From the IMG/VR virus record IMGVR_UViG_3300028883_000011, positions 1 through 57,904 of that record: a DNA stretch of 57,904 nucleotides; one strand, written 5' to 3'. Below are positions 1,315 to 50,101 of this stretch, piece by piece. Both the position numbers and the translations under genes were made by a program. The notes under the pieces were generated by a model. The model was not told the origin of the DNA. It saw only the letters and a program-made list of their open reading frames with translations, and made no database searches. Each line of letters opens with the position of its first letter. Within the stretch, counting starts at the first letter, position 1. The DNA comes from a virus (taxonomy: Duplodnaviria; Caudoviricetes).

Positions 1315-4300
1315 ATGGCTGTTGCACAAGACTTACTGGACGAATACCTGGATCATGCAGTTGACCTGGTGGGCGTAGAGAAAGATCTGCAGCAGCGCAT
1401 CCTCGGGCAGCTCAAGGCTCTGGAACAGGAACTGATCTCGAAATTTATTGATATCGATTACGATAACCCCCCAACCAAGGCACAGGCTGAACGAATGGAA
1501 AAGCTACTCATGCAGACCAAAGCCACCATTAAATCAGCCTATCAGTCTATTGAATCAGACCATGCCGAATTCTTGGCCGATTTTTCCAAAGTTGAGGCCG
1601 AAGCCAATGTCAATCTACCCAACCGGATCCTGGGCGCTTCCATTTTCTCAACCAGCCTGTCACCAAAACAGCTCAAAGAGATCTGCAAAGACACCCTGAT
1701 CCAGGGAGCTCCGTCCGCGGAATGGTGGAGCCGCATGGACAAGAAGACCATGGAGCGATTCTCCGACGAAGTCCGCCAGGGGATGCTGGCAGGCGAGCCG
1801 TTGAACGAAATTGTCCAGCGGATCCGCGGAAAATCCACCGGAAAAAGCAAGACCTACTACCAGTTTATCAAGGGCAAGGATAAAGACGGTAATCCCGTTT
1901 ATCGAATGAAGAAAAAGAACGGGAAGCCGGTTCGCAAGAAGTGGATGAAGTTCAAAGGTGGCGTGATGGGGGTAACCACCCGGGAGGCCGAATCCCTGGC
2001 CCGATCCTCTGTCCAGACCGTGGCCAATACTGTCCGCAATCAGGTGATTGCAGAGAATGATGAGTTCGTCAAAGGATACGAGTGGATGTCGACCCTGGAT
2101 ATGAGAACCACCCCCCTCTGCCGAGCCCTGGATGGCAACAAATGGACCCTGGATTATACCCCGGTTGGTGATTCCCTGCCTTTCCCCGGGCCCTGCCCGC
2201 ATTGGGGGTGCCGGTCAACAACTGTTCCCTGGATGAAACCGATGTCAGAGCTTTCCCAGGGGAAGCTGGGGGATATCCCGGAAGGAAAGCGGGCAGCCAT
2301 GGCTGATAGTTGGCCAGATCATGGGGGCGATGTCCCCTCCAAAACGACCTTTACCCAGTGGTTTGATAAGCAGCCGGAGGAAAGGCAGCTGGAGATCCTG
2401 GGCCCGGGCAAGCTCAGTTTGTATAAAAAAAACAAGCTGACCTTTCGTGACATGGTGGACGGCAACGGAGAGCCACTTACCATTCCCGAATTGGAAGCCA
2501 AGGTGAAAAAGAAAGGTTTTAAACCCCTACCCCCAAGGGTGCCCGAGTTTGATGAGCAGGGATATCTTCGAGACATGAAACAGGCCCTGGAGGATCCGGA
2601 GGTAACGGTTCAGTTCCGGAAAAACATCGACCATGGATCCCTGTCGCTTAATGGAGTCCGGCTCAAGAAGGCGGGTCCACCCCGGTTGGGCCAAGATATT
2701 GATATTGGAGAGCCCAAGTTTAAAGCAACGAAAGGCAAAAAGACGTCATCCGGTATCATCATCGAGGAAGATGACGGCCGGGTCTGGGTATATGAACCGG
2801 AGGATCATTTTGGCGGATATGAACACACCTTCCCGAAAGGAACGATTAATGAGGGGGAAACACTGCAACAGGCAGCGATCAGGGAGGTTTTTGAGGAAAC
2901 CGGTCTGGAAGTGGAGATTACCGGATTTCTGGGAGACTATGAAAAAAGCACTTCGAAAACCCGTTACTATGTCGGCCGGCGCAAGGGCGGCGATCCGTCA
3001 GCAGCTCACTGGGAAGCGAAGAACGTAAAACTGGTTCCAAAGCAACAGGTCAAAGATTTATTGAACGTCGATGTCGATAAGAATATTGTTGACGACTACT
3101 TCAACGGCTTTCACGCCAGCGATAAGTATCTTGAATTTGAGCCAGGTTCCCAGAGGGGGTCCAATCCCGGGGGCACATTCACCCATAAACTGACGGGGAA
3201 GAAGTTCTACGGGAAATTCTACAGTGACATCGACCAGGCACGATCCGAGGTTCTGGCCAACAACCTGGCCGGGGAGCTGGATATTGGAGCGCCGAAGTCA
3301 AAGATCGCAACCGTTGCCGTTCCCAAAGAAATGCAGAGCCGGCTGGGTGCCGGGCAGGCCGATATTATTCTGACCGATTTTGTAGATGATCTGAAGGCCC
3401 TGGAGTACAAGAAAAAATCGAAACGGCTGCAGGCCCAGATCGCAAAGCACCATATCTTTGCCGGACTGGTTGAGGACTGGGACGTAGTGGGGCTTGGGTA
3501 TGACAATCTCCTGATGGATGGCAGCGGCCGGGTATTCGTGATCGACCAGGGGGGTGCCTTCAAGTTCAGGGCCCAGGGGTTGCCAAAGAAATACTCAGAG
3601 CTTCCGGATGCTTTCGATTCCCTGCTGACTGATATCAATCATCAGGCCAAGACGGTATTCGGTCCGGTGTTTGAATCCTATACCAAGGAGAATGGTGAGC
3701 AGCTGGCCAGGTGGCTGGGTAAGCTCTCTGATAATAAGATCAGGAGATCTGCATTGGCCGCGGGTATCCAGGACACGCAACTGGTTGAAAACCTGATTTC
3801 CCGGAAAAAGGTTCTTATTGATCGGCTGAGGTCTTTTAAAAAGTCGGTTGAAGTTATTAATAAACCTGATAAGATTGGAAGGCATTTTAACGCTATCGAA
3901 GGAATCAAGAAGTCCAGGATTGTTGGGAAAAATATCAAAGGGGACAGGGACCTGGTGGAGGACTGCAACATGCTGTTCTGGGAGGAAAAGAACGCATCCG
4001 GCGAAATAATCACCCGGGTCAAAATGAAAATGACACTGGATGGATCAAACCGGATCACAGATAGCCTCGACCTGAGAGGGCAGATCTCAACCGGACCGGT
4101 CAACTCCCGGGACATGTACTGGAATGATATCCTTTCTTTCATCAAAACCGTCAACCATCATGCCGGAGACGGGAAATACAACACCGATACCGTATCCAAA
4201 GCCCTTGAATGGAAAAAGAGCCTGACTGAACTTGCTTGTATAGCAGCCGAAGCGGAAACCAAAGCCATGGCCAGGCATTACGTCGACCTAATTGAACGGG

Positions 4301-21169: not shown

Positions 21170-21200
21170 TTGGTCAACCTGTGCGGAAATTGAAAAATCC

Positions 21201-21490
21201 CAGGGACTAAAATTTCAAGATAGTCCCTGGGGACTAAATAGGGACTAAATCATGTGATCTATGGTGACGTAAAATGGCCGCAAATGTCCAGCTTAAAAAC
21301 AATATACTCCTGAATTCAATGATAAACGTCCTATAAAGGAATAGTCCGACGACGTTGACGGTGTGACTCATAATCGTAAGGTCGGCAGTTCGATCCTGCC
21401 CATCGCTACCAATCATTTCAGTAGTTTACCTGCCTGCAAATTTCCTTCACACCTTCAAATCCAATTTCAGGGACTAAATAGGGACTAATT
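21201..21490. mobile_element. attP site with six GGGACTA(A) arm-type repeats around a tRNA-derived core
   Basis: Repeats at 21201, 21221 (inverted), 21230, 21241, 21470, 21481. Confidence 0.88.
21365..21411 (+). tRNA. 3' half of tRNA-CAT (Ile2 or elongator Met), the attP core; not a complete tRNA
   Basis: GACTCATAATCG anticodon loop, GGCAGTTCGATCCTGCC T arm, ends ACCA; no D arm or 5' acceptor strand. Confidence 0.88.
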
Positions 21491-21608
21491 CGCACGCCTT
21501 AAAACATCGTTTTTGGAAGAAATACTGTTGACAGCTTGGGCATGTGGGTCTAAACAGATGGTGTTGGAAAAATTCTGCTTTAAAATCAACTATTCAAGTG
21601 GGGGAAAA

Positions 21609-21950: not shown

Positions 21951-22092
21951 AAAAACCTAATGATTAGAAGCAAACATCTGAACGCATTGTCTTTCTATTT
22001 TGGCAGAAACATTGCTTTTCTTTGTTTCGAGTAATTGACAAATGGGGTACAATAGTATCATATGTATAAAAAACCTTTCCAAAGGAGGTATC

Positions 22093-22461
22093 ATGTCAGA
22101 AAATCAAAAAAAACTGACATTTGAATACAAGATATCAGATAATTACGCAGTGTATTCAGTTGATGGCGGACACGGTGGCGTAACACCCAAGGGCGATATA
22201 ATCATGAATCTGTTTTCAGAACGCGGCCCCATTCCAAGAAAGGAAACATTCCAAGTGAATGAAAAAGGTGGTTTAGTCACTCCTCCCATTGAAATTGAAT
22301 GCAAAGATTCAATAATAAGAAATGTTATGTTCGGCATTTCTTTAAAACCTGCAGACGCCAAATCTATCGCTGGTTGGTTACTCAATAAAGCGAAGCTCGC
22401 TGAAGACCAAAAAAAACTGAAACACCCTGAAACAATAACTGAGGATAAGTTAGATGGGTAA
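22093..22461 (+). CDS. DUF3467-like protein, first gene of a three-gene TA-like operon
   Basis: YSVDGGHGGVTPKGDIIMNLFSER...ISLKPADAKSIAGWL; RBS AAGGAGG. Confidence 0.55.
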   Translation: MSENQKKLTFEYKISDNYAVYSVDGGHGGVTPKGDIIMNLFSERGPIPRKETFQVNEKGGLVTPPIEIECKDSIIRNVMFGISLKPADAKSIAGWLLNKAKLAEDQKKLKHPETITEDKLDG

Positions 22462-22897
22462 ACCAATATTTTCAGACCAAGAATCCTTTTCATTGGCTGT
22501 CTATTCGATGCAAAACGCATTTTGTGATGGAGCGGTTACCGGTTTCTATCTTGGTGCCAATTATATGATTGATCTAATAAGGCAAAACATGCAAAACACG
22601 ACCATGTGTCAAGATTTTATTGCCCCTGGGACTATCAGAGATTTGCCAGATGAAGATTACCAGCTTAATGAAAACGTTCCTTTTGTCTTCGAATATAGCG
22701 AGGAGGGGATACTCGCCTCTATCCCGGAACTTCAAATCTTTGGAGAAGGGGATACACTAGAAGAGGCTTATAAGAATCTACAATTAGAGCTACTTGATAT
22801 AGCTGATGACATATACGATGTTCCTGACTCTGACCTTGGGGAGAATCCGTTATCATGGAAAAAAATACTGCATCGGATACTAAGGAAGTCAAAATAA
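22454..22897 (+). CDS. HicB-like antitoxin with N-terminal extension
   Basis: ILASIPELQIFGEGDTLEEAYKNL HicB motif. Confidence 0.7.
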   Translation: MGKPIFSDQESFSLAVYSMQNAFCDGAVTGFYLGANYMIDLIRQNMQNTTMCQDFIAPGTIRDLPDEDYQLNENVPFVFEYSEEGILASIPELQIFGEGDTLEEAYKNLQLELLDIADDIYDVPDSDLGENPLSWKKILHRILRKSK

Positions 22898-23193
22898 AGC
22901 GTTTCACAGACCGAGAAGTAAACAAACAAATATACAGAAAAGTCGACCCGAAAACCCGAAAAAGCAGATCCGGACACAAAAAAGGGCTTATCTGTCTAAA
23001 TGGGAAAATTGTCGCCAGAGTCAAAATCCCCAATCCTCATGATAGCTATTTATCTGGGAATTCTCTCAAAAAAATCGCAGATCAATTACTTCTAAATAAT
23101 GAGAGTTTTAATGGCTTGATTGACTGCACCGTGTCCGGGTCAGATTACTACGCCATCCTTGAAAATGTTTTCACCAAATCGGCGTCAAAATAG
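22855..23193 (+). CDS. HicA-like toxin
   Basis: RSGH...VKIPNPH...LKKIADQL pattern; basic protein. Confidence 0.6.
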   Translation: MEKNTASDTKEVKIKRFTDREVNKQIYRKVDPKTRKSRSGHKKGLICLNGKIVARVKIPNPHDSYLSGNSLKKIADQLLLNNESFNGLIDCTVSGSDYYAILENVFTKSASK

Positions 23194-23261
23194 CTTTTCT
23201 ACACCGAACACCATTCTTTCCCCACTGGAAATACGCCCCCTCACCTCCAGAATTTAGGTTT

Positions 23262-24566
23262 TCATAGCTGTCCGACAAGATCTGAACTGGAGTTTTTCAT
23301 CAGGTTCCAATACCCGATTGTTGTAGCTGGGTCTTCATGCCCAACCATGTCCTGGACCATGGGTATTGGGTGTCCCTGGGAAAGCAAATAAGTGATTGCC
23401 CACCCCCGAAGTGAGTGAAACGGTTTCACCCCATTTATTCCTAATTTTTCGACTCTTTTTTTCCCAGCCCTCCACAAATTCTTTGGTTCCCCAAAATAGA
23501 GAATACCGGTTCCATCTCCAAGAAAATATCTCTCTTCATCCGGCTTAATAGACATGTCATATTTCAGAAAATCCATCAGGCCTTTATTTTTGCTGATATC
23601 GATTACACGCCGGCTTTTGTTCCCCTTCGGGGACCAGATCTCTTCTTGTATTTCGATGCGATTTTTAACCCTTTTTCTCTTTCGAACAACAACATCGGTA
23701 ATTTCTATTTGCCCCCGATCCAGGTTGATATGTTCATACGGCAGGTGCAATACCTCCCCCTTTCTCATGCCTGTATTTTTGATCAGAAACACGGTCTTAT
23801 ACAGCAAGAAGACCCCAAGCAATTCCTTCCCTTTCCTGGCTACTGGCCTTCCGGCCTTTTTCGCCTCTCGAAGTTTTTTAAGCCGTTCCCGGTAGTCTTC
23901 CAGAATATCATTTTCGAGAAAGGTTACTTCGTCAGTTGTATATAGTACGGGCTGGGTTTTCGGTTTAGGCGGCAGTTTAAACTTGATGAGGTCCTTAACA
24001 TATCGTTCATCATCTTCATCGAACTGTTCATAGCCCCAATTCAATACAGATTTGATTGATATGCAGTAATTCCAGATTGAGCGATCACTACACCCGCTCT
24101 TTTGCATTGTGGCTAAAAACTGAGATACCCGATTCGAATTAAAATACCGTCGCTCTATCAGGTGATCTCGGTGCGTTTGCTTATAATACCGGATTGCATA
24201 GGTATATTTATCCAGAGTATTCTGGTCCCTTTGGCCAAGTCTAACCATGCTTTTCATACTGGATAAGAACTGGTCAAACAACCAATAAATCGAATTCGGC
24301 TTTTTCTCTTGTTCCCGTTTTTTTTCCTCCTGCTTTTTCTCCCGGGAGAGTTCCTGGAACGTTTTTTCCCATAGTTTTTCCAGGTATTTTATTGCAGCTT
24401 GCTTTGTCCGACGGCCTTTTTTATTGATGGGGTCACGGTATAAGACTTCATCCACCGTGCAAAGGGTACGCTGGGGAGGATTTTTTACATTACCAAGTCC
24501 ATAGAACCGGGCCTTGTAAATTCCTTTTTCTTTATCTTCAAAGAACTTCTGTCGTTTTCGGGGCAT
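23262..24566 (-). CDS. Second tyrosine recombinase/integrase
   Basis: TGMRKGE, PKG, FHSLR, VGH, TTIGY: full R-K-H-R-H-Y set. Confidence 0.9.
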   Translation of the reverse strand: MPRKRQKFFEDKEKGIYKARFYGLGNVKNPPQRTLCTVDEVLYRDPINKKGRRTKQAAIKYLEKLWEKTFQELSREKKQEEKKREQEKKPNSIYWLFDQFLSSMKSMVRLGQRDQNTLDKYTYAIRYYKQTHRDHLIERRYFNSNRVSQFLATMQKSGCSDRSIWNYCISIKSVLNWGYEQFDEDDERYVKDLIKFKLPPKPKTQPVLYTTDEVTFLENDILEDYRERLKKLREAKKAGRPVARKGKELLGVFLLYKTVFLIKNTGMRKGEVLHLPYEHINLDRGQIEITDVVVRKRKRVKNRIEIQEEIWSPKGNKSRRVIDISKNKGLMDFLKYDMSIKPDEERYFLGDGTGILYFGEPKNLWRAGKKRVEKLGINGVKPFHSLRGWAITYLLSQGHPIPMVQDMVGHEDPATTIGYWNLMKNSSSDLVGQL

Positions 24567-24848
24567 AATCAATTCAAAAGGGACTTGCCAACACCCCACG
24601 AATTGATTAGATTATAAGTTCATCAGGGGGCTGGCGGGTTTTTCGTCTCCGGCCGGGGAAACATACGTTGGACCTGTCAGCTTCTCACTCAACTCAGAAA
24701 TTCTGCAATACTTCCCTCCTTTTAGTCAATTCTAGCGCCATGCTGTTTTCATCTTTTCCGATTCTCCAACCAGGTCCAGAATATAAGCATTAGTATTATT
24801 GCAATCCCGAAGGCAGCTAATTCTAGTTTAGTCATTTTTTCAATTTTC

Positions 24849-27800
24849 TTATTTCATACTACTTTCAACTATTTGTATTTCTTTTTCTGTTAAATCGTAG
24901 AGTTCATACACAAGTTGGTTAATGCTGTTTTGGGTTTTCATTATTTTTGTTTTAATAGTATTTACTTCGGATTTCTGTTTGTTAAAGTAATCGCTCCATT
25001 TTTTTCTTTCTTCAATACTAAAATTAGTAAGATCAGTGTTTGATTTTTTTAGTCCTTTCTTAAATTGAGGCCAATCAAGTTTCATCCAATTCAGCAGATT
25101 TTTGTCTATTTTAGACAATCCAAACTCTGTTTGCATGAATTGTATAAAAGATAAAGATTTTTTATACAATTTTGTTTTTTCCTCAATTATTGTGTTAGTT
25201 TTTTCAATAAACGGTTTTTGGCGTTGACCATATACCACAGGGATTGGAAGCCTGCATACTTGATTTTCAAAGTATTCAAAAACACCGCCACCTGTCTGCT
25301 TTCCAATAGTTTTATATCTAAAGCTCAATAAATTTGAATTTAGCAAAGACAGCAGATATTTAATTGAAATATCCTTATTTGTATCAAATATTACAGTGGT
25401 GTTTGTAAGACCAATATATTTTCCCGCTGATTCATCCAATGCAAAACAGTTATCTTTCGATCTATACGAACACCAGATCTTATCGAGTTGATAATGCTCT
25501 TTATGCATTGCAAATGTATAATTCCACCATTTTGCTGTTTTTCTTCTTTTTTTATCTGCACGATTGGCCAGCTTATCCTTTTTGCTCAGAAGATATTTTT
25601 TCAGACTATTTGAAAGACACTCAAACTCTTTTTCATCTTCTACGTAAATCATCCAATCATTTAATTGATCATCGATAATGTATCGTTCGATAGCTTCTCC
25701 GTTTAAACGTCTTCTTAAATATTTTTCGGGTATTATTTTTTCAACCCCTTCAGAACAATACACATTGTTTGCTCCAGTTTGCATACCAGAACCAACAATA
25801 AATAAATCCCCCAGTTTTGCGTGTTTATTGTCTATTTTTTTGTTCAGCAAACCCGTGGCTTCTGTTGCTAAAGCAAAAACATCGTTTTTTGAAAAACTAA
25901 CATTGAATTTACGACTATCGCTATTAATAATTTCACATATCTGTTCAGGTGTATATTTCGCTTCTTTTACATTGATAACCTCTGTTGAATGGCTTTTTTT
26001 GGATTTATTTAGCTTTATTATTGCACAAGTAATTGATGCATCCGTGAACACATGATAGCGTTCAAAATTGACGATTTTTTCGAATTGTGTATTATCTAAA
26101 ATATAGTTTCTTAATTTCTTTGCTTTCGCTGAAAATAGAAATGCATTTGAGACAATAAAACAAACGTTTGAATTTGAAATATCTATTGCTTTTTTTATAA
26201 AATAGAAAAGAATATCGCTTTTATCCATCCAAACTTCTTTATATGCCTCTTGAAGATGTTTTACATACAAAGAATCTAATCCTAGTGTTTCAACGTTGAA
26301 ATAAGGTGGATTCCCAATTACAACATCAAACCCACCTTTCTTAAAGACATCAGAAAATTCTTTTTCCCATTTGAAAGCTTTATTTCCAGCTATCGCTGGA
26401 TCATCAATTAATGAATTGCCGCATTTAATGTTGTCCTTTAAGATCGTCAGCTGGGAAAACCTATTCGCTGTTTTAATCCACAAAGACAGCTTTGTTATTT
26501 CGACCGATTCACCGTTCAGGTCAACACCGTAGAGATTGTTTGAGAGAATGCTTTTATCAAGATCTTCTATATCCATTTGCCCACCCATCAGATCAGCCAG
26601 CGTATTATTTACTGTTTGCCCTTCTCTGTGGAGAAAATCAAAAGCTTGGACAAGAAAGGCCCCGGATCCGCAAGCCGGATCGAGCACCTTTATGTTTGCC
26701 AGCTTTTCTTTATAAGATGTCCAGAATTTGATGTGGCGTTCAATGTTTTTGTTATAGAGCAGCTTGTTTCCTTTCTTTGTGCGGCGGATGGATTTGTAAT
26801 CGTCTTCAGTTAGCTCGGGAAGGTATTCAACCATCAATTCCTTTTTCCTGTCCTCCAGCCAGGTCCCGATTGTGTTCTCGACAATGTATTTCGTGATGTA
26901 CTCGGGAGTATAAAAGATCCCATCTTTTTTTCTTTTTCCCTTTTTTTTATCGATTTCTTCATCGTTGATTTCGGCCCTGAACTCCTCCAGGTCGGAAATG
27001 GACTGTTCAAAGATGTGCCCGAGAATGTTGACATTCAGATCCGAATCAAAATCATAGTCCGTGATTTCTGCCAACTCATCGAATATTTCATCATCGATTA
27101 TCAGGGAATCCAATTCTGGGTCTTCTGCGAAGAGCCCCCCATTGAAAGCGTTAATGTCGTGAGCCGGGTTCCCCTTATCCAATGAAATAAAGAGACCTTT
27201 AAGTTCACCCCAGATGCTTCTCGATGTAAATGATTCCTGGGCTTGCTTTACTACTTTTCGAAAAATGCGCTCCGGCAATAACCCGGTGTCTTCACAGAAG
27301 CATATAAAAATAAACCTATCGAGCAGTTTTTGTGTTTTCTCCAGGATGAATATTTCATCGAGCCCTTTGTTTTTCTCACAAATGTGATTAAATAGATGAG
27401 TCCTGGCTAGTTTATATTCCTTATAAAACTGTTTTGATATTCTCTCTTGTTCAGCTTCATTTTGGGTGTAGAGGCCATCTATCTGGCTTTCATGGGACTT
27501 GGAAATCAGATTTTCATTGCATAGCAAATAATAGAAACGCTTGAATTCATTCTCTTCAACCAAGTCAGCGATTTTAAATGTTTCATACTCGATCATGGTT
27601 GAGTGGTGATAAAACCTTAATTCTATGTAGTTTGATACGATCACCCACTTGCAATTTTTCCCCGATTTAGGAACGTAACCAAAAGCCTGCTCTACGGGGG
27701 TGCCTGCAAATCCCTTTCTCTGTTGTTTTGCGTCAAGGTTTACTGTTGCGCCTTTAAGTTCAATGACAACTCGAATATCTTCTCCCTTGGCATCCATGAA

Positions 27801-28103
27801 TCCGAGAACTCCATCAGCTGAGGTTGCATCGAACTGCGAAGTTTGCTCATGACGCATAGTCCATTCACTCGGGGAATCAATCCTAAACTTATATCCCAGG
27901 ACATCAGAAAATAGGTTCTGCAGGAAACGCCCATCTATTGATGTCTCTTTTTCTTTAAAAACATCTTGGGATTCAATAAATTCCTTCCATTTTGATAATA
28001 TCTCGATCTTTGCAGAAAGCTCTTCACCATGCGGAAACTGAAATTTCGAAATAGCCGTATCAAGAGTCTTCTTGTTAAAGATGTGATCAACAGCGTTTGG
28101 CAT
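24849..28103 (-). CDS. Type IIG (Eco57I-like) restriction-modification fusion enzyme
   Basis: N-terminal DG...IELKG nuclease, GIFYTP, DPACGSG, GNPPY, TaqI-C-like specificity region. Confidence 0.92.
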   Translation of the reverse strand: MPNAVDHIFNKKTLDTAISKFQFPHGEELSAKIEILSKWKEFIESQDVFKEKETSIDGRFLQNLFSDVLGYKFRIDSPSEWTMRHEQTSQFDATSADGVLGFMDAKGEDIRVVIELKGATVNLDAKQQRKGFAGTPVEQAFGYVPKSGKNCKWVIVSNYIELRFYHHSTMIEYETFKIADLVEENEFKRFYYLLCNENLISKSHESQIDGLYTQNEAEQERISKQFYKEYKLARTHLFNHICEKNKGLDEIFILEKTQKLLDRFIFICFCEDTGLLPERIFRKVVKQAQESFTSRSIWGELKGLFISLDKGNPAHDINAFNGGLFAEDPELDSLIIDDEIFDELAEITDYDFDSDLNVNILGHIFEQSISDLEEFRAEINDEEIDKKKGKRKKDGIFYTPEYITKYIVENTIGTWLEDRKKELMVEYLPELTEDDYKSIRRTKKGNKLLYNKNIERHIKFWTSYKEKLANIKVLDPACGSGAFLVQAFDFLHREGQTVNNTLADLMGGQMDIEDLDKSILSNNLYGVDLNGESVEITKLSLWIKTANRFSQLTILKDNIKCGNSLIDDPAIAGNKAFKWEKEFSDVFKKGGFDVVIGNPPYFNVETLGLDSLYVKHLQEAYKEVWMDKSDILFYFIKKAIDISNSNVCFIVSNAFLFSAKAKKLRNYILDNTQFEKIVNFERYHVFTDASITCAIIKLNKSKKSHSTEVINVKEAKYTPEQICEIINSDSRKFNVSFSKNDVFALATEATGLLNKKIDNKHAKLGDLFIVGSGMQTGANNVYCSEGVEKIIPEKYLRRRLNGEAIERYIIDDQLNDWMIYVEDEKEFECLSNSLKKYLLSKKDKLANRADKKRRKTAKWWNYTFAMHKEHYQLDKIWCSYRSKDNCFALDESAGKYIGLTNTTVIFDTNKDISIKYLLSLLNSNLLSFRYKTIGKQTGGGVFEYFENQVCRLPIPVVYGQRQKPFIEKTNTIIEEKTKLYKKSLSFIQFMQTEFGLSKIDKNLLNWMKLDWPQFKKGLKKSNTDLTNFSIEERKKWSDYFNKQKSEVNTIKTKIMKTQNSINQLVYELYDLTEKEIQIVESSMK

Positions 28104-28170
28104 ATGTTTTCCTTTCTTTTCTATAGTTAGTAATACTTACAGCCGTCTAAATGTTTTCTCCCGATTTGGA

Positions 28171-28464
28171 TTACTCCAATACCAAATACATGTAGTTTTC
28201 ATAAATCATGGTGCTGGTTAAATACACAGCAACCAGACCCAAAGCAGCATTGAAAACCGAAATTCGCGTCTTATATACCAACCAGCCGACAGCCAGTGAC
28301 GCAACGATCCGAAGCCCCAGGATCAGGCTCAGGTGCTGGGCGTAGAAATGGAGATGGTGGTCAGGGCTGGGGATCCTGCCGAATCCACGAAGTGCATAGT
28401 CCAGCATGAAAGCATCGACTAGATTCAGGACAATGAGAATATAGTAGGTAGCTTTACCAAACAT
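28171..28464 (-). CDS. Three-TM membrane protein
   Basis: Hydrophobic helices. Confidence 0.6.
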   Translation of the reverse strand: MFGKATYYILIVLNLVDAFMLDYALRGFGRIPSPDHHLHFYAQHLSLILGLRIVASLAVGWLVYKTRISVFNAALGLVAVYLTSTMIYENYMYLVLE

Positions 28465-28495
28465 GTTTTTGATTGTTCCTGCACAGCATCCTTCG

Positions 28496-28906
28496 TTAGC
28501 TTAGAAATCGATCGAGAATTAGGCCAAAAACAAAGATAGCAACAATCATAAAAATTGCGATTAAAGGAATGGATGCATTCAAACGCTTTTTGTCTGTAAC
28601 TTGGGTCTTTGCCGGGTTAGTGTTGCCAGGAGGAATGCTTTGATCGGATAACGCCTCTTTGCAGACGGGGCATAGTTTCACATCCTTGCTGTCAACCCTG
28701 TTCCCGCAATTTGAGCAAACCAGCCTAAACGACATACGGAAACCGACATACACGAGGACTATTCCAGCGATAACCCAAAAGATGCCGAAGATAGAGAAAA
28801 TAACAGTTAAGATATTAATGACCCCAAAAATGAACATGCAGAATCCAATTATCTCCAGCAGCAGTCCGGCTCCAGATGTCTGTCTTTTTCGCTGAATTAC
28901 GGCCAT
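28496..28906 (-). CDS. Membrane protein with zinc ribbon
   Basis: TM-TM-CSNCG...CPVC-TM. Confidence 0.7.
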   Translation of the reverse strand: MAVIQRKRQTSGAGLLLEIIGFCMFIFGVINILTVIFSIFGIFWVIAGIVLVYVGFRMSFRLVCSNCGNRVDSKDVKLCPVCKEALSDQSIPPGNTNPAKTQVTDKKRLNASIPLIAIFMIVAIFVFGLILDRFLS

Positions 28907-28989
28907 GGTTAATTCTTTTTTGTGTTTATCTGGTTATTATTGCGAGTATAATGATCAAGGCAACAGCGCCGGCAATAGCGTAGCCCGGG

Positions 28990-29673
28990 TTAATAATCCC
29001 ATGGACGGACATCTTTTTGCCATCCCCCGTATTGGTCTTTTGATTCGCGGATATTGAGAGTCCTCTTTTCAACTTTCCCATCCTTGAATTTTATCTCAAG
29101 ATTGAAAGTTTCAAGGAACCCGATATCATCATGATTTCGAGTGTTGATTACAATAAAACGATGCAGAAGAAGCCCCGGCGGGATGACAAGTTTTCCCCTG
29201 AATAAATGCCCAGGAGGAAAGAGCTGACTCTTATCGATTGTTTCAAATTTTGCATTAAAATCCTGAGCAGACAAAGCGGCAATGGCAGTGGCAGCTAAAA
29301 GTCCCCCAGCTCGCGCATCTGATCTTGTTTTTGCTGTCATCGCACCAACCGTGCCTACAATGAAACCAATTTTTGCTAAAATTTGTTTGTTTTTCTCGAT
29401 TTTGTTTTGTGTAGCCTGCATCCAATATTGATATTCCTGTCCTGCTGTAAATTTGACATTTTTGTTTATTTTTTCTTTGTCAAAAGTCAGCTTTACACTC
29501 TCGATGAACATCCAATCCTGAGTGTTGTTGTAGAAAGTAAAATCTATCACTCCAAAATACTGCGTCGAATGTGATTGCCGTATTGAATTTTTAATTTCAA
29601 GGTCATCTTCAGCAAAGGAACAAGTGACAATACCCATTATCATAGACAAAGTTATTATGATCACTTTTCTCAT
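28990..29673 (-). CDS. Exported protein with glycine-zipper-like segment
   Basis: Signal peptide ending SFA; GTVGA...AGGLLAA segment. Confidence 0.6.
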   Translation of the reverse strand: MRKVIIITLSMIMGIVTCSFAEDDLEIKNSIRQSHSTQYFGVIDFTFYNNTQDWMFIESVKLTFDKEKINKNVKFTAGQEYQYWMQATQNKIEKNKQILAKIGFIVGTVGAMTAKTRSDARAGGLLAATAIAALSAQDFNAKFETIDKSQLFPPGHLFRGKLVIPPGLLLHRFIVINTRNHDDIGFLETFNLEIKFKDGKVEKRTLNIRESKDQYGGWQKDVRPWDY

Positions 29674-29862
29674 TGGAATTCTCTGATTCAGTTTTTGCGA
29701 TTTGAGTTTAAATAAGATCAGCCATCGAATACACCTATCCGGGAAGAAAATCAATATTAGTTCACTGCTGAAAGATGTCAGCGTTTGTTTTCTCTATCCC
29801 GCCTGTATTGGTTTAAAAGCGCAATCACATTTGTTCCTGGTACGCGGCATGCTTTTTCCTTT

Positions 29863-30606
29863 TTATCCATTACTGTGTTTTTTTTCTGGGAGGGTAATCT
29901 CTTTTTTCAACTGATCTATTTCTAACAGCAACCTGGTTTTATCGGCTCTGAGATCGCTGATCGTTTCAAGTAGTTGCTCAATGTATTGGTTTTTCTCTTT
30001 GATTATTGCGATTAAATCAAGAGAGTCCTGCTGGGCTTTTTGTTCAGAAAAAACCTGTTGTGTTGCCGAAATAAGTTCATTTATCGTTGTTGCCTTATCA
30101 ATTCCCTGAATCGCGTCCTTTATAAGCTTAGGATCTCTTCTCAGCATATATTCTTCTTCGACATCAAATAATTTTGACATTTGAATCAGGTGATTTGTCG
30201 GAATCGTTCTTTTCCCCCTTTCCCATTGACTTATTGCAGCTGCTGTTTTTAGCCCAAGCTTTTCAGCCAGCTCTATTTGATCCCATCCTTTTTTTTCACG
30301 ATGATACCTCACCCGGTCAGCCTGTGTCTGCGGGAGATCTTCCTGATTAACGTTAATTTTAGTTAAATACGGTTCACCCTCCCCGCTTTCCAGCCAGTAA
30401 GTATTACATCCTATTTTTGCCAATTCTGCAGTGGCATCTGCCCCAAGTCTCTGCAAACCTGAAAGTACAGCACTTATTGTAGATTTCGATTTTCCAACCA
30501 TTTTTGCAAATCTGTTTTGCTTTCCCTTGGCTAACTCATTGATATAAAACCTTACTCTACCTGTATACTCAGAAAGTTCTGATTTCTGGATTTTTTTTAT
30601 TGACAT
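29863..30606 (-). CDS. CI-like repressor with two XRE HTH domains and no S24 peptidase
   Basis: QNRFAKMVGKSKSTIS and WDQIELAEKLG...ISQWERG; divergent from the cro-like gene. Confidence 0.85.
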   Translation of the reverse strand: MSIKKIQKSELSEYTGRVRFYINELAKGKQNRFAKMVGKSKSTISAVLSGLQRLGADATAELAKIGCNTYWLESGEGEPYLTKINVNQEDLPQTQADRVRYHREKKGWDQIELAEKLGLKTAAAISQWERGKRTIPTNHLIQMSKLFDVEEEYMLRRDPKLIKDAIQGIDKATTINELISATQQVFSEQKAQQDSLDLIAIIKEKNQYIEQLLETISDLRADKTRLLLEIDQLKKEITLPEKKHSNG

Positions 30607-33504: not shown

Positions 33505-34104
33505 ATGCTTACAAAAATTCAAGCCGAACTGAAGGCCCCCAAATCGCAGTTTAATGATTTCGGGAACTACAACTACAGAAGCTGCGAAGATATCCTGGAG
33601 GCGGTCAAACCTCTGCTGGTAGATCATGGATGCACTCTGACCATTACTGATTCGATTGAATGCCATGGTGACAGGGTTTATGTCTGCGCAACTGCCCGGT
33701 TTAAAGATGCTGAGAACAACGAAACCGAAGTTAAAGCATATGCCCGGGAACAAGCTAACAAAAAGGGGATGGATGAAAGCCAGGTGACTGGCGCCACGTC
33801 CTCTTATGCCAGGAAATATGCCCTGAATGGTCTTTTCCTGATTGACGATAACAAAGACGCTGACGGTCAAGACAACAGGGGCCAGGGGCAGAAACCACAG
33901 CAAGATGGCAGTCAAAACAATCCACCTGCTGGAGTCAACAATAAACAGACCGTTGAGCGGGTTCTCAACAAGAACGAGGTTGATCAGAAGTGGAACGGCA
34001 AGATCTACGCAGGTGACACTGTCTACATCGATAAAGTGCGCATTAAACCGCCTGTAGAGCAGCTGGCCAAGCTGAAAACTCACCCGAAATACAAAGGGGA
34101 ATAA
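33505..34104 (+). CDS. erf: ERF-family single-strand annealing protein
   Basis: IQAELKAPKSQFNDFGNYNYRSCEDILEAVKP; GATSSYARKYAL. Confidence 0.92.
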   Translation: MLTKIQAELKAPKSQFNDFGNYNYRSCEDILEAVKPLLVDHGCTLTITDSIECHGDRVYVCATARFKDAENNETEVKAYAREQANKKGMDESQVTGATSSYARKYALNGLFLIDDNKDADGQDNRGQGQKPQQDGSQNNPPAGVNNKQTVERVLNKNEVDQKWNGKIYAGDTVYIDKVRIKPPVEQLAKLKTHPKYKGE

Positions 34105-34139: not shown

Positions 34140-34544
34140 ATGGAATATACACACTACTGGCGACAGCAAAGAGATTTCACAGATGCAGAATGGGACCAGA
34201 TCAAAAAGGCTTTCGGTGCTATCCATGAAAAGTCAGGTGTTTTGCTGACTGGCCCAAGTGGCGAACCAAATGATCCTATTATTTGCGATGACGGAAGAAT
34301 CGAATTCAACGGCGTAGAGGATGAAAACAACGACCACGCACATGAAACCTTCATCGTGGAAAAGATTAAAACCAGTGGCTTTGAATTCTGCAAGACTGCC
34401 TGCAAGCCATATGACGATGTTGTGACGGGCTTGCTGCTGTATATCGACCACGCAGCACCGGGAGCAATGTCAATCTCATCAGACGGAAATATGAGCGGGG
34501 TTGATTGGGAAACTGGAAGAAATCTTTTTGAATCGGTTAAGTAA
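34140..34544 (+). CDS. Conserved phage hypothetical protein
   Basis: YTHYW...FNG...HETF...FCKTA.KPYD...SSDG pattern. Confidence 0.7.
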   Translation: MEYTHYWRQQRDFTDAEWDQIKKAFGAIHEKSGVLLTGPSGEPNDPIICDDGRIEFNGVEDENNDHAHETFIVEKIKTSGFEFCKTACKPYDDVVTGLLLYIDHAAPGAMSISSDGNMSGVDWETGRNLFESVK

Positions 34545-34601: not shown

Positions 34602-35039
34602 ATGAGAAAGATTAAACGGTGGCGTTATTACTGCGAGTATTGCGGCAAGGCGGGAGGGTCTGCTTTTCACATGCAGAACCACGAAGAAGCCTGCACGAAG
34701 AACCCAAACCGGAAATGCGGCCTTTGCACGATGGCTGATCTCATGCAGAAGACATCCGACGAGCTGATTAGCTTTATGCGGTAATTTCTCCAAACAGAGC
34801 AATGGTCGAATGACTACGGGATGGAGTCAGACCCGTATCAGGTCATTAAAGAAGGGTACGACGAAGAAACTGTTTTAAAAAAACTGCGGGGCTTTGTTGA
34901 TGGTTGCCCTGCCTGCATGTTGACTGCGATGCGGCTAACTGAATCGACGGGTTGTTTCAGTAAATTCGATTGGAAGAAAGAACGTGACTCATTTTACAAA
35001 GAGTCAATTCCAGAACCTGAATATTATTACGCTATGTAA
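34602..35039 (+). pseudogene. Zinc-binding phage protein interrupted by an in-frame TAA (34782-34784)
   Basis: ORFs 34602-34784 and 34821-35039 are in the same frame with open codons between; Cys motifs on both sides. Confidence 0.6.
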
Positions 35040-35065
35040 TCAGCAGCATAACCCAAGGAGAGAGG

Positions 35066-35260
35066 ATGACATTTGAAGATGCCGTCAAAATAGCAAGAGG
35101 GTGCCACGATTACAGCGGTGGATACCATGACCCGAAAGAATGGGAGATTTACCACCACGGAATCCAGACGGTGATCAATGCGCTCGAATCTGTAGAAAAA
35201 AAGGGCATAACCATGCAGTCGTCAGTCCTTCACTCCATCGGATCAACAGTCACGACATAA
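35066..35260 (+). CDS. Hypothetical protein flanked by 15-bp direct repeats
   Basis: CATAACCCAAGGAGA at 35047 and 35256. Confidence 0.65.
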   Translation: MTFEDAVKIARGCHDYSGGYHDPKEWEIYHHGIQTVINALESVEKKGITMQSSVLHSIGSTVTT

Positions 35261-35274
35261 CCCAAGGAGAAACC

Positions 35275-35523
35275 ATGAACATCCAGCAATGGGAAAACAG
35301 GATCGATACAGCGCCTACCATGGCACACCTGGCAACGATCAAGGAGCAGTGGGAGGAGTGTCAGGAATACCACCCGGCAGAAGAATGGCCGGTGATCTAC
35401 GGTTCGTTGGCAGCCAGGCGGCGGGAACTGAAGATGGAGGGTCCCTGTCATGTCTGCGGCAAGCCGCGGGATTATGCCGGGACTGATGAATGCCCGCATT
35501 GCGGAGATAACTGTCCGTTTTAA
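35275..35523 (+). CDS. Hypothetical protein with C-terminal zinc ribbon
   Basis: CHVCG...CPHCG; RBS AAGGAG. Confidence 0.65.
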   Translation: MNIQQWENRIDTAPTMAHLATIKEQWEECQEYHPAEEWPVIYGSLAARRRELKMEGPCHVCGKPRDYAGTDECPHCGDNCPF

Positions 35524-35567
35524 TCCTCCCTGGGCGCCTGCTTCGGTGGGTGCCTGGGGGGAAATGT

Positions 35568-35695
35568 GGAGCGGTGGCGGAATTGGTAGACGCTAGGGCA
35601 AGACTTCCCGAGGGTGGTGCGAACTCACACAGGGGTGAGGTTACGCAAGGTCACTCAATCCATCCGTCCAGGTTCGAATCCTGGCCGCTCCACCA
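35568..35695 (+). ncRNA. tRNA-like element 1 (Leu-type D arm, canonical T arm, CCA end, anticodon arm replaced by ~74 nt)
   Basis: GGAGCGG/CCGCTCC-A-CCA; TGGCGGAATTGGTAGACGC; CCAGGTTCGAATCCTGG. Confidence 0.75.
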
Positions 35696-35858
35696 ACCAT
35701 AGGCGTCAAGTCCGTTTCATAGGCACGGGTAATGGCAGGAGAAAGGCCTATAACTCCGGGCAGTCAACTTTCGACCGGGTATGGTGGGTGTATGCCACTA
35801 CACCAATTGAAGCCAACCTATTTACTGACCATGCGCCTACATAAACAAAAAAGAGGAG

Positions 35859-36476
35859 ATGAGTCACATGAAAATTTTTGCATTTGATACAGAAACGACG
35901 GGAGTCGAGAAGGGTAAGCACGAAATTACTGAGTTGGCATACTCCATCCAGATAAACGGGGTAGAAAAGAAGTCCGATGTTCTGTACTTCCGGCCGACAA
36001 ACTTCGATATTATTTCGGATTCAGCCCTGGAGGTGACTGGAAAAACGATTGATGAATTGAAGGGCTATCCACTGAGGAAGGAGTCGTTTGATATCCTGAT
36101 GACTGTGATTGAGCAGTTCATCGACAAGTTTGACAAACGGGATAAATTCTATTTCCTGGGATACAATGTCCAGTTCGACATTGATTTCCTTCGCTACATG
36201 TTTCAGTGGATGAAAACTGATTTTCCCGCTGAATATGGCAAAACCTATTTCGGCTCCTACTTCTTCCACAAAAACAACGAGCCCCGTATTGACCCGTTTC
36301 CTGTGCTCCAGCTGTATGCCATCAAGTACAATCTGAATCTTCCGAACTGGCGCCTCAAAACCGTTTGTGATCATTTTGGGATCCGGCTGGATAATGCCCA
36401 TTCCGCACTGGCTGACATCAAAGCAACGCAAGAGCTTGCAGATAAGTTTATTTCTGCAATCAAAAAAATCGATTAA
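35859..36476 (+). CDS. DEDDh 3'-5' exonuclease (DnaQ-like)
   Basis: FDTETTG, GYNVQFD, HSALAD motifs. Confidence 0.9.
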   Translation: MSHMKIFAFDTETTGVEKGKHEITELAYSIQINGVEKKSDVLYFRPTNFDIISDSALEVTGKTIDELKGYPLRKESFDILMTVIEQFIDKFDKRDKFYFLGYNVQFDIDFLRYMFQWMKTDFPAEYGKTYFGSYFFHKNNEPRIDPFPVLQLYAIKYNLNLPNWRLKTVCDHFGIRLDNAHSALADIKATQELADKFISAIKKID

Positions 36477-50048: not shown

Positions 50049-50101
50049 GGGGCACCTGGTGAAAACCCATTCTCCGGGTTCGAGCCCCGGCTGCCCCTTC
50101 A
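50049..50101 (+). ncRNA. tRNA-like element 2 (acceptor stem plus T arm, D arm missing)
   Basis: GGGGCA/TGCCCC stem; CCGGG-TTCGAGC-CCCGG T arm. Confidence 0.5.

What the first reader, a model, noticed from the sequence alone, without database searches (positions are those of the whole stretch)
35568..35695. tRNA-shaped RNA with perfect acceptor, D and T arms but a multi-hairpin domain in place of the anticodon arm
Seen: a 7-bp acceptor stem with A-CCA, a Leu-type D arm and a canonical T arm enclose ~74 nt with nested stems (GGG/CCC, GGGTGG/CCATCC, GGGTGA/TCACTC) and no 7-nt anticodon loop. The insert is too short for a group I intron. Known: bacterial LeuRS largely ignores the anticodon, so such an RNA might still be charged. 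Inference: together with 50049 and 51741 this forms a set of tRNA-scaffolded RNAs. They could act as decoys for tRNA-targeting defences, as RNase P/Z processing signals, or as stable carriers for a functional RNA insert.
Basis: partly seen in the sequence, partly recalled or inferred. Interest (0 to 1): 0.78.

Follow-up and report, generated by a model that had tools for sequence, protein, structure and literature searches.

The report
Phage tRNA-Leu mimic carrying swappable RNA cargo
A temperate phage encodes an RNA that keeps the top half of a leucine tRNA but replaces the anticodon part with its own structured insert, and the same chassis with many unrelated inserts turns up in hundreds of other phages, so it looks like a widespread, so far unannotated class of phage RNA whose function is still unknown.

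Summary
Window 35568-35695(+) has a 7-bp acceptor stem, U8, a Leu-type D arm, U48, a canonical T arm and A-CCA around 74 nt with no anticodon arm. Rfam's tRNA model reaches 35.8 bits only by skipping the anticodon arm. ARAGORN calls nothing.

It is not a one-off.

Across the family the stems covary, G.U outnumbers A.C 34:2, and U-1, U48 and discriminator A are kept. Forced intron readings give 18 isotypes.

The middles behave as exchangeable cassettes: same flanks with different middles, and the same middle in different flanks. Within a type they are conserved, and two types show compensatory changes, one of them across a pseudoknot.

Best reading (0.45): a non-decoding tRNA-Leu mimic cut from the early recombination/replication transcript by tRNA-processing enzymes. 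It is probably chargeable and carries a type-specific cargo RNA of unknown target.

No sign of nearby antisense targets, SD mimicry or a real intron. No RNA data exist, and this window's own insert has no relatives.

The parts
35524..35562 (+). 17-bp hairpin with a TTCG loop. It lies between the stop codon of ORF 35140-35523 and the tRNA-like RNA and ends 5 nt before its first base. It is a likely 3' protective hairpin for the upstream mRNA once the tRNA-like RNA is cut off (inferred).
   Evidence: -30.5 kcal/mol, z -5.6 against shuffles. No T-run follows, and one search finds no terminator-like or promoter-like site in 34900-36100.
35568..35574 (+). Acceptor stem, 5' strand. Base -1 (35567) is T.
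   Evidence: 7/7 pairs with 35685-35691. U at -1 is found in 66 of 84 unique family members.
35575..35593 (+). U8-G9 and a Leu-type D arm (3-bp stem, 11-nt loop with A14, A15 and the GG).
   Evidence: alignment. The same D arm occurs in ARAGORN-called tRNA-Leu genes of phage tRNA arrays. The 5' part (bases 3-27) of family member L040, which carries this same D arm, is 96% identical to an annotated tRNA-Leu of Pantoea phage AAS21 (H25).
35594..35667 (+). 74-nt cargo domain in place of the anticodon and variable arms. It has a stub hairpin at 35596-35609 (3 bp, 8-nt loop, no U33), a rod of about 54 nt at 35612-35665 sitting where a type II variable arm would sit, then G and U48 (35667).
   Evidence: Constrained fold. 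No 5-bp stem with a 7-nt loop. No similar sequence in phage records at E<=10 other than two 19-23-nt chance hits.
35668..35684 (+). T arm (5-bp stem, TTCGAAT loop).
35685..35695 (+). Acceptor stem 3' strand (35685-35691), discriminator A (35692) and encoded CCA (35693-35695).
   Evidence: Discriminator A occurs in 72 of 83 family members. An encoded CCA is rare in the family (2 of 83).

Best explanation
This is a non-decoding mimic of a type II tRNA-Leu, one member of a large phage family built on the same chassis.

Proposed mechanism (steps marked shown or inferred):
1. The gene sits inside the early recombination/replication operon of a temperate phage, co-oriented with its neighbours and without its own promoter or terminator (shown).
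2. Host tRNA-maturation enzymes cut it out of the polycistronic transcript. RNase P cuts at 35567/35568. The encoded A-CCA needs only 3' trimming (inferred).
3. This leaves the upstream mRNA capped by the 35524-35562 hairpin (inferred).
4. The intact acceptor/T/D 'elbow' makes the RNA stable. Because it keeps the leucine identity set, LeuRS can probably charge it. With no anticodon arm it cannot decode (inferred).
5. The 74-nt insert is the type-specific working part. Across the family, inserts are exchanged between phages like alleles and are conserved within a type. I therefore read them as specificity modules that bind a host or phage partner in an early-infection conflict. That partner is unknown (inferred).
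For: Scaffold of this element:
-.

Family size:
- Of 103 unique hits with full flanks, 100 pair all 3 free T-stem positions. 73 pair 7/7 and 10 pair 6/7 acceptor positions.
- Among those 83: discriminator A in 72, U8G9 in 80. U48 in 99 of 103. G.U 34 against A.C 2.
- U at -1 in 66 of 84.
- Spacing 86-116 nt gave 117 more stretches, and 74 of 116 hits have at least 6/7 acceptor pairs. On the same chassis middles run from 11 to 113 nt.
- Members also occur in metagenome contigs (11 stretches), in bacterial genomes and MAGs (37 of 120 hits with at least 6/7 pairs), and in cultured Bacteroides phage BS-TP2, where it is unannotated.

Not a decoding tRNA:
- ARAGORN in default mode of 97 members. In intron mode it of 97, with 18 different isotypes.
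- Phage tRNA arrays that hold members also hold canonical tRNA-Leu genes.

Cassette behaviour:
- L007 vs L025: flanks 89% and 76% identical, scaffold 96%, middle 42%.
- L011 vs L025: middle 98%, flanks 44% and 41%.
- L007 vs L100: middle 100%, flanks 35% and 32%.

Inserts are functional within a type:
- The L007 type is nearly invariant in 65 contigs with at least 5 different downstream contexts.
- A pseudoknot stem has three unrelated but complementary sequences of 7, 8 and 8 bp in L007, L012 and L156.
- There are compensatory pairs in the L337 type.

Context:
- Here: ERF, RNase_T-type exonuclease, AAA ATPase, SSB and DnaB. In the L007 group and BS-TP2: Sak4, NinB, DUF2303, NinG, helicase and an O-like protein.
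- Most loci are tightly packed and co-oriented. No promoter-like or terminator-like site lies nearby.

LeuRS tolerance of anticodon-arm loss: PMC2377443, passages read.
Against: - No RNA evidence of any kind. No RNA run holds this sequence (see Tried and rejected).
- This window's own insert has no relative. There were 0 viral hits with its acceptor, and none of the 11 metagenome hits shares its middle. So its structure has no covariation support.
- Its fold is no better than shuffles (z -0.45). Family-wide the median z is only -0.58, and the paired fraction equals that of shuffles.
- No motif is shared by more than about a fifth of the inserts.
- Inserts as short as 11-27 nt on the same chassis suggest that the chassis alone can be enough.
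- No target was found.
- The pattern scans fixed 20 scaffold bases. Conservation of those bases is therefore by construction, and the census is biased and truncated.
Confidence: 0.45

Rival explanations
1. The scaffold is the whole point. The RNA acts as a tRNA-body decoy, sponge or acceptor: a competitive substrate or inhibitor for host enzymes or defence toxins that act on the acceptor end or the elbow, or a leucine acceptor kept out of translation. The middle is only a tolerated spacer whose main job is not to be an anticodon arm.
For: - The chassis is strongly conserved while middles range from 11 to 113 nt with no common motif.
- Middles are on average barely more structured than shuffles.
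- All reported LeuRS determinants, and U at -1, are kept.
- Expression from an early operon would fit an anti-defence role.
Against: - A neutral spacer should not be nearly invariant across 65 contigs with different flanks.
- It should not keep a pseudoknot through three complete stem replacements.
- A deletion bias in compact phage genomes should shrink it, yet 54-113-nt inserts are common.
- The acceptor stem of this element lacks the G3:C70 and A4:U69 pairs preferred by E. coli L/F transferase (abstract of PMC4105747; sequence).
Confidence: 0.25
2. It is a cis-acting processing signal, a form of tRNA punctuation comparable to plant mitochondrial t-elements or the mascRNA element (both recalled). 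In this reading it exists to make RNase P and 3' tRNA-processing enzymes cut the operon transcript, setting the ends and stability of the neighbouring mRNAs. The excised RNA is a by-product.
For: - It is intergenic and co-oriented, and in many loci only 14-30 nt from the next start codon.
- There is no own promoter or terminator.
- U at -1 in 66 of 84.
- A strong hairpin lies just upstream here (z -5.6), and upstream windows are more structured than downstream ones (mean z -0.88 against -0.14).
- A minimal acceptor + T-arm element at 50049 sits 24 nt before another ORF.
Against: - A cutting signal needs only the acceptor and T arm. It does not explain a fully conserved Leu-type D arm, U48 and discriminator A.
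- It does not explain conserved, covarying inserts.
- Members also sit inside tRNA arrays, where punctuation is already supplied.
Confidence: 0.15
3. It is a real tRNA-Leu whose anticodon arm is interrupted by a short intron that is removed to give a decoding tRNA.
For: ARAGORN in intron mode returns tRNA-Leu(gag) with a 34-nt intron for this element. The scaffold is otherwise flawless.
Against: - As I read that call against the sequence, the spliced anticodon stem would pair at only 3 of 5 positions and no variable-arm helix would be left.
- The same mode gives 18 different isotypes over 80 of 97 family members.
- No group I intron or other Rfam family matches at E<=10.
- Most of the 74 nt could not be spared and still leave both arms.
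- No short-intron splicing system is known in bacteria (established knowledge). The phage is bacterial in type: ERF, DnaB, SSB, a lambda-type integrase and a CI-like repressor.
Confidence: 0.03
4. It is a decaying tRNA-Leu pseudogene, or an attP remnant, with no function.
For: It has no anticodon. Its insert has no relatives and no fold signal of its own.
Against: - The scaffold is intact at every position that matters, here and in about 225 viral contigs, with compensatory changes and a 34:2 excess of G.U over A.C.
- The true attP of this phage is elsewhere, next to the integrase at about 21340-21412, and is the usual 3' tRNA fragment.
- Both tRNA halves are present in a free, DTR-bounded phage genome.
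Confidence: 0.05

Closest known systems
Canonical bacterial/phage type II tRNA-Leu
   Same: 7-bp acceptor, U8, a 3-bp D stem with the same D loop, U48, T arm and discriminator A. The reported LeuRS identity set is present. Members lie among real tRNA genes in some phage arrays and share their A-CAA 3' context.
   Different: No 5-bp anticodon stem with a 7-nt loop and U33. The anticodon and variable arms are replaced by an unrelated, type-specific domain of 11-113 nt. ARAGORN of 97 members in default mode.
Phage T4 species 1 RNA (rnaC) and species 2 RNA (rnaD), the stable RNAs of the T4 tRNA cluster
   Same: Phage-encoded stable RNAs next to tRNA genes. rnaC has a T arm and an acceptor-like 3' strand followed by A-CAA. 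Their function is unknown (recalled; the record says only 'small, stable RNA').
   Different: No sequence similarity was seen by eye (no search run). rnaC has no Leu-type D arm and carries a 5' extension; it scored only 17.5 bits, to tRNA-Sec. No cassette-like family is known for them (recalled).
C4 antisense RNA of P1/P7 and CI RNA of P4 (Rfam C4, RF01695)
   Same: Temperate-phage small RNAs with an acceptor-like terminal stem. They are cut from a longer transcript by RNase P, and their variable loops set the immunity type (recalled). That is the nearest known logic to 'tRNA-like handle plus type-specific part'.
   Different: No C4 match at E<=10 on this element. There is no complementarity to its own flanks, here or across 59 loci. 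C4/CI lack true D and T arms (recalled).
YrlA, the bacterial Y RNA bound by Ro60/Rsr
   Same: A non-decoding RNA with tRNA-like D arm, T arm, acceptor and Levitt pair. It is a substrate of tRNA enzymes, and a non-tRNA module sits where the anticodon arm would be (PMC4201824, passages read).
   Different: YrlA is permuted: T arm, then acceptor hairpin, then D arm, with its ends on the anticodon side. It lies next to a TROVE gene. This element is in normal tRNA order, no TROVE gene is in the phage, and there is no Rfam Y-RNA match.
tmRNA
   Same: A tRNA-like acceptor/T-arm domain around a large non-tRNA middle that may contain pseudoknots. It is charged although it has no anticodon.
   Different: - ARAGORN finds no tmRNA. 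The only Rfam hit is tmRNA_permuted at 11.3 bits against gathering 47.
- Position 3:70 is A:U, not G:U.
- A full D arm is present here.
- The middle is far too short for pseudoknots plus a tag reading frame.
Engineered tRNA scaffolds for recombinant RNA; mascRNA and plant mitochondrial t-elements
   Same: The anticodon region of a tRNA is replaced by a cargo RNA so that the cell processes and stabilises it (engineered approach; PMC3753655 seen only in a search listing). tRNA-like processing signals also occur in longer transcripts (recalled).
   Different: The scaffolds are man-made, and the natural signals are eukaryotic or organellar. No natural bacterial or phage counterpart with exchangeable cargo turned up in my searches.

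Membership tests
Decoding tRNA (Rfam RF00005; tRNA-Leu) | 7-bp acceptor stem, discriminator, D arm with GG, T arm with UUCRA | tested here: met
Decoding tRNA (Rfam RF00005; tRNA-Leu) | 5-bp anticodon stem with a 7-nt loop, U33 and purine 37 | tested here: not met
   the anticodon arm is replaced by a 64-nt local insertion; only a 3-bp stub with an 8-nt loop and no U33. ARAGORN finds 0.
Decoding tRNA (Rfam RF00005; tRNA-Leu) | Scores above the family threshold in ordinary annotation | tested here: inconclusive
   35.8 bits (gathering 29) in a permissive 701-nt search. Nothing in gathering mode or E<=1 mode on the whole window. 15.5 bits in the genome search.
Intron-bearing tRNA (group I or bulge-helix-bulge) | A recognisable intron core, and exons that join into a canonical anticodon arm | tested here: not met
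   No intron family at E<=10. The ARAGORN -i reading for this element is weak, and the family gives 18 isotypes.
tmRNA | Detected by ARAGORN or Rfam; G3:U70; no D stem; tag reading frame | tested here: not met
C4/CI antisense immunity RNA (RF01695) | Rfam match; loops complementary to targets in the same transcript | tested here: not met
   no match; longest complement to the 400-nt flanks is 7 and 6 nt (z -0.13 and -1.04). Family mean z is -0.17 and -0.13 over 59 loci.
C4/CI antisense immunity RNA (RF01695) | 5' end made by RNase P | not testable with these tools
   Only indirect evidence: U at -1, a 7-bp acceptor and an RCCA end.
YrlA / Y RNA | Permuted order (T arm, acceptor hairpin, D arm); Ro60 (TROVE) gene nearby | tested here: not met
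   Normal tRNA order. No TROVE match in the phage.
   compared.
   No relative of this window's cargo was found.

The most novel reading that the evidence does not exclude
Phages across many bacterial phyla share a natural 'tRNA chassis' system. A conserved top half of tRNA-Leu, processed by RNase P and probably leucylated, serves as a universal handle. Recombination within the conserved halves or flanks swaps unrelated RNA modules (pseudoknots, rods, T-loop hairpins) into it. Each module would be a different early-expressed RNA effector, for example an inhibitor or decoy for a particular host defence or RNA-handling protein. That would make these loci an RNA counterpart of the protein anti-defence gene cassettes of phages, and a natural precedent for the synthetic tRNA scaffold.
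Probability: 0.3. Interest if true: 0.85.

Novelty: new variant of a known kind. Interest (0 to 1): 0.72.

Why it matters
- Standard annotation misses these genes. ARAGORN of 97, the element is unannotated in the cultured phage record, and Rfam does not report this window's element in gathering mode. A common class of phage RNA is therefore invisible in current genome records.
- The combination is unusual for a non-coding RNA: an almost frozen handle, with inserts that are unrelated between types but conserved within a type and exchanged between related phages. That points to specificity modules under conflict-type selection.
- If the RNAs are charged with leucine yet barred from decoding, they would be a new case of aminoacyl-tRNA-like molecules used outside translation.
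- A cultured host-phage pair, Bacteroides salyersiae BG8 with BS-TP2, carries a member identical to 37 of the metagenomic copies of the L007 type (element sequence). The questions are therefore directly testable.

Tried and rejected
- **Antisense to its own genome.** The longest match of the 74-nt insert elsewhere in the window is 10 nt. 100 shuffles gave 9-13, mostly 10-11.
- **Antisense to neighbouring mRNA (C4/CI model).** 59 non-redundant loci, 400 nt on each side, mean z -0.17 and -0.13. Rejected for contiguous pairing; short bipartite sites would be missed.
- **Shine-Dalgarno mimicry.** Suggested by enriched AGGTGG-type words. Duplex energy with a 9-nt anti-SD motif (recalled) was no better than shuffles: mean z -0.13, n = 103.
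- **Shared motif in the inserts.** The best 5-6-mers occur in at most about 20% of 64 or 103 non-redundant inserts.
- **Conserved neighbouring protein.** Clustering 1011 flanking ORFs from 97 loci gave no cluster in more than 17 loci, and the large clusters came from one group of related gut phages.
- **Close relatives of this phage.** The search for related loci with the downstream exonuclease found none. The pattern with its own acceptor found 0. Phage records gave no match.
- **Expression.** No RNA holder listed. Two DNA runs only, one of them probably the source sample.
- **Known RNA families for the inserts.** None at E<=1 over 20 loci, or at E<=5 over 3 loci of the L007 type.
- **Stand-alone insert.** The insert of L040 resembles (79% over 47 nt, E 0.4) an intergenic hairpin in Cellulophaga phages that has no tRNA scaffold. 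This is suggestive of a stand-alone module but not significant.
- **L/F-transferase donor idea.** The preferred acceptor pairs are absent (abstract only).
- **Literature.** Full-text keyword searches and passages of PMC10690425, PMC7609411 and PMC4201824 gave no description of this family. That is not proof that none exists. Supplements, such as the 10,006 candidate RNAs of PMC10690425, could not be read and may include it.

Full report
**What is there**

The window is a complete 57,904-bp viral record with direct terminal repeats, and the element occurs once.

At 35568-35695(+) the sequence reads as a tRNA in every part except the middle:
- A 7-bp acceptor stem, 35568-35574 with 35685-35691.
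- U8-G9.
- A D arm with a 3-bp stem and an 11-nt loop (35577-35593).
- A T arm with a TTCGAAT loop (35668-35684), preceded by U48.
- Discriminator A and an encoded CCA (35692-35695).

How the standard detectors see it:
- The Rfam tRNA model aligns end to end at 35.8 bits (gathering 29), E 8.9e-6. It does so only by replacing its 17 anticodon-arm positions with a 64-nt insertion.
- ARAGORN reports no tRNA or tmRNA in the window.
- Rfam in gathering mode, and at E<=1 over the whole window, reports nothing here.
- A glocal-type search gives 15.5 bits.

**The insert in this window**

With the cloverleaf constrained, the 74 nt fold into two parts:
- A 3-bp stub hairpin with an 8-nt loop and no U33, in the anticodon-arm position.
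- One irregular rod of about 54 nt, whose 3' strand ends 2 nt before the T stem, where a type II variable arm would end.

The third is displaced by alternative pairings.

The insert is no more stable than dinucleotide shuffles (z -0.45). It has no similar sequence in phage records. It has no relative in the viral or metagenome scans. Its structure therefore rests on thermodynamics alone.

**It belongs to a large family**

Viral contigs:
- Of 103 unique hits with complete flanks, 100 pair all three unconstrained T-stem positions. 73 pair 7 of 7 acceptor positions and 10 pair 6 of 7.
- Among those 83, the discriminator is A in 72 and positions 8-9 are UG in 80. Position 48 is U in 99 of 103.
- Non-Watson-Crick pairs in the stems are G.U 34 times and A.C twice. 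The structure therefore belongs to the RNA of this strand.
- The base before position 1 is U in 66 of 84 unique members, against about 32% U in the leaders. U at -1 is the known preference of bacterial RNase P (established knowledge).
74 of 116 hits have at least 6 of 7 acceptor pairs.
- Spacing of 1-30 nt gave 80 stretches. Many of these are ordinary class I tRNAs. They also include the commonest chassis with 21-27-nt middles that form no anticodon arm, and one related chassis (L400) with an 11-nt middle.

Other sources:
- Metagenome contigs: 11 stretches.
- Bacterial genomes and MAGs of many phyla: 37 of 120 hits have at least 6 of 7 pairs. Isolates include Chryseobacterium, Epilithonimonas, Bacteroides, Sphingobacterium, Dysgonomonas and Paenibacillus.
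- Cultured Bacteroides phage BS-TP2: a copy identical to the L007 type, lying unannotated between two genes.

Caveat: 20 scaffold bases were fixed by the patterns and three scans were truncated. The sample is therefore biased and is not a census.

**Not a decoding or spliced tRNA**

- In default mode ARAGORN of 97 members.
- When allowed introns it of 97, but as 18 different isotypes with introns at varying positions.
- For this window it proposes Leu(gag) with a 34-nt intron. As I read the sequence, this leaves an anticodon stem with 3 of 5 pairs.
- No intron family matches.
- 26 of 97 members have canonical tRNAs within 1.5 kb. Arrays that hold a member also hold normal tRNA-Leu genes with different acceptor stems.
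- Some phages carry two members with different middles: L057, L271 and L091.

**The middles are cassettes, not drift**

| Pair | Flanks (up / down) | Scaffold | Middle |
|---|---|---|---|
| L007 vs L025 | 89% / 76% | 96% | 42% |
| L011 vs L025 | 44% / 41% | 96% / 100% | 98% |
| L007 vs L100 | 35% / 32% | 100% / 96% | 100% |

The same middle also occurs on different acceptor stems. Examples are L083/L086, L112/L049 and the L337 group.

**Within a type the middle is conserved and structured**

- A scan for two conserved loops of the L007 type found 69 stretches. 66 lie in a Leu chassis.
- 65 of these carry the L007 middle with only three variable positions, although the downstream sequence differs in at least five ways. 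20 of the 58 nt were fixed by the pattern; the other 38 were not.
- L007, L012 and L156 share one stem and both loops of an H-type pseudoknot. Their second stem has three unrelated but complementary sequences of 7, 8 and 8 bp, and the inner hairpin also covaries.
- In the five-member L337 type, two pairs in the middle and four in the acceptor stem change on both sides. Paired cells are 97.9%, against 26.5-51.9% when the partners are slid by 1-3 columns. With five sequences this is modest evidence.
- Family-wide the signal is weak. The median fold z is -0.58, and the paired fraction is the same as in shuffles.
- A helix ends exactly 2 nt before the T stem in 33 of 103 members.
- No motif is shared by more than about a fifth of the inserts.

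**Context**

The phage is temperate:
- A tyrosine integrase with an arm-binding domain, a CI-like repressor and an antirepressor.
- Its attP is the usual 3' tRNA fragment with arm repeats next to the integrase. The element at 35.6 kb is therefore not attP.

The element lies in the early recombination/replication block:
- ERF recombinase at 33505-34104.
- Then two small ORFs with no family hit (34140-34544 and 35140-35523).
- Then the element.
- Then an RNase_T-family exonuclease, an AAA ATPase, SSB, DnaB, DUF2303 and a C5 methylase.

The L007 group and BS-TP2 have it in the equivalent block: Sak4, SSB, NinB, DUF2303, then the element, then NinG/Rap, helicase and an O-like protein.

Other points:
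- Most members are co-oriented with, and close to, both neighbours.
- In this window no promoter-like or terminator-like site lies within 34900-36100.
- A 17-bp UUCG hairpin (z -5.6) ends 5 nt before the element.
- The phage encodes no TROVE protein and no CCA-adding enzyme.

**Mechanism proposed**

Shown:
- The tRNA top half is intact and under selection in the RNA sense.
- The anticodon arm is absent.
- The inserts are exchangeable, and in two insert types (L007 and L337) they are constrained.
- The gene sits inside an early operon without transcription signals of its own.

Inferred:
- RNase P and 3' tRNA-processing enzymes excise it.
- The upstream mRNA keeps a protective hairpin.
- The RNA is stable and is leucylated. 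[quoted passage not shown]
- It cannot decode.
- The insert binds a type-specific partner.

I put 0.45 on this 'handle plus cargo' reading, 0.25 on a scaffold-only decoy or acceptor, 0.15 on a pure processing signal, 0.05 on a dead pseudogene and 0.03 on an intron-bearing tRNA.

**Comparison with known RNAs**

- It works most like the RNase P-processed C4/CI immunity RNAs of P1, P7 and P4 (recalled), and like engineered tRNA scaffolds. It fails the C4 tests: no Rfam match and no flank complementarity.
- It resembles YrlA in mimicking D arm, T arm and acceptor (PMC4201824). It is not permuted and has no Ro60 partner.
- It is not a tmRNA.
- T4 species 1 RNA is the nearest old phage precedent: a stable tRNA-like RNA of unknown function.
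- My four keyword searches, and the passages I read, gave no description of this family. Supplementary tables that might list it were closed.

**Verdict**

This is a real and well-supported feature. It is a new variant of the known kind 'tRNA-like non-coding RNA'. It is widespread, missed by standard annotation, and has an unusual cassette architecture. Its function is unknown but can be tested in a cultured phage.

Noticed in passing
window 21190-21495: An attP-like site beside the integrase. The 3' part of a tRNA (CAU anticodon loop, T arm, acceptor 3' strand, A-CCA) lies at about 21340-21412. It is flanked by repeated arm-type motifs at about 21199-21250 and 21470-21490. The phage probably integrates into a host tRNA gene with a CAU anticodon.
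   Followed up: partly
window 22000-30000, minus strand: A low-GC island (0.35-0.41, against about 0.49 elsewhere). It holds a second integrase-like ORF (23265-24599) and a 1084-aa MmeI/Eco57I-type restriction-modification fusion (24852-28103). It may be a nested mobile or defence island inside the phage.
   Followed up: partly
window 50049-50097: A mini tRNA-like hairpin pair: a 6-bp acceptor-like stem plus a 5-bp T arm with a TTCGAGC loop, and no D arm. It lies 24 nt upstream of ORF 50121. The best Rfam hit is mascRNA-menRNA at 19.2 bits, E 1.1, which is not significant. It looks like a minimal RNase P/Z signal.
   Followed up: partly
By eye it has a terminal stem and an adjacent hairpin, but no T-loop consensus.
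   Followed up: partly
window 35524-35562: A very stable 17-bp hairpin with a UUCG tetraloop lies directly upstream of the element (-30.5 kcal/mol, z -5.6). Members of the L007 group have a comparable GC hairpin at -25 to -4.
   Followed up: partly
L148, L139, L240, L237 (bacterial MAG contigs): tRNA-Leu-like genes with ordinary acceptor stems and a normal variable arm. In place of the 17-nt anticodon arm they have a rod of about 37-51 nt. One (L237) has a second T-loop-like hairpin inside it. They may be a chromosomal cousin of the phage family.
   Followed up: no
L448:600-660 (Cellulophaga phage phi10:1, KC821618.1 about 3010-3057): An intergenic hairpin resembling the insert of the L040/L003 type (79% over 47 nt, E 0.4). 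It stands alone with no tRNA scaffold and is followed by a terminator-like hairpin.
   Followed up: partly
L057, L091, L271, L398 (viral contigs): Two chassis RNAs with different middles lie within a few hundred bases of each other. In L398 the two copies share nearly the same 23-nt middle but have different acceptor stems.
   Followed up: no
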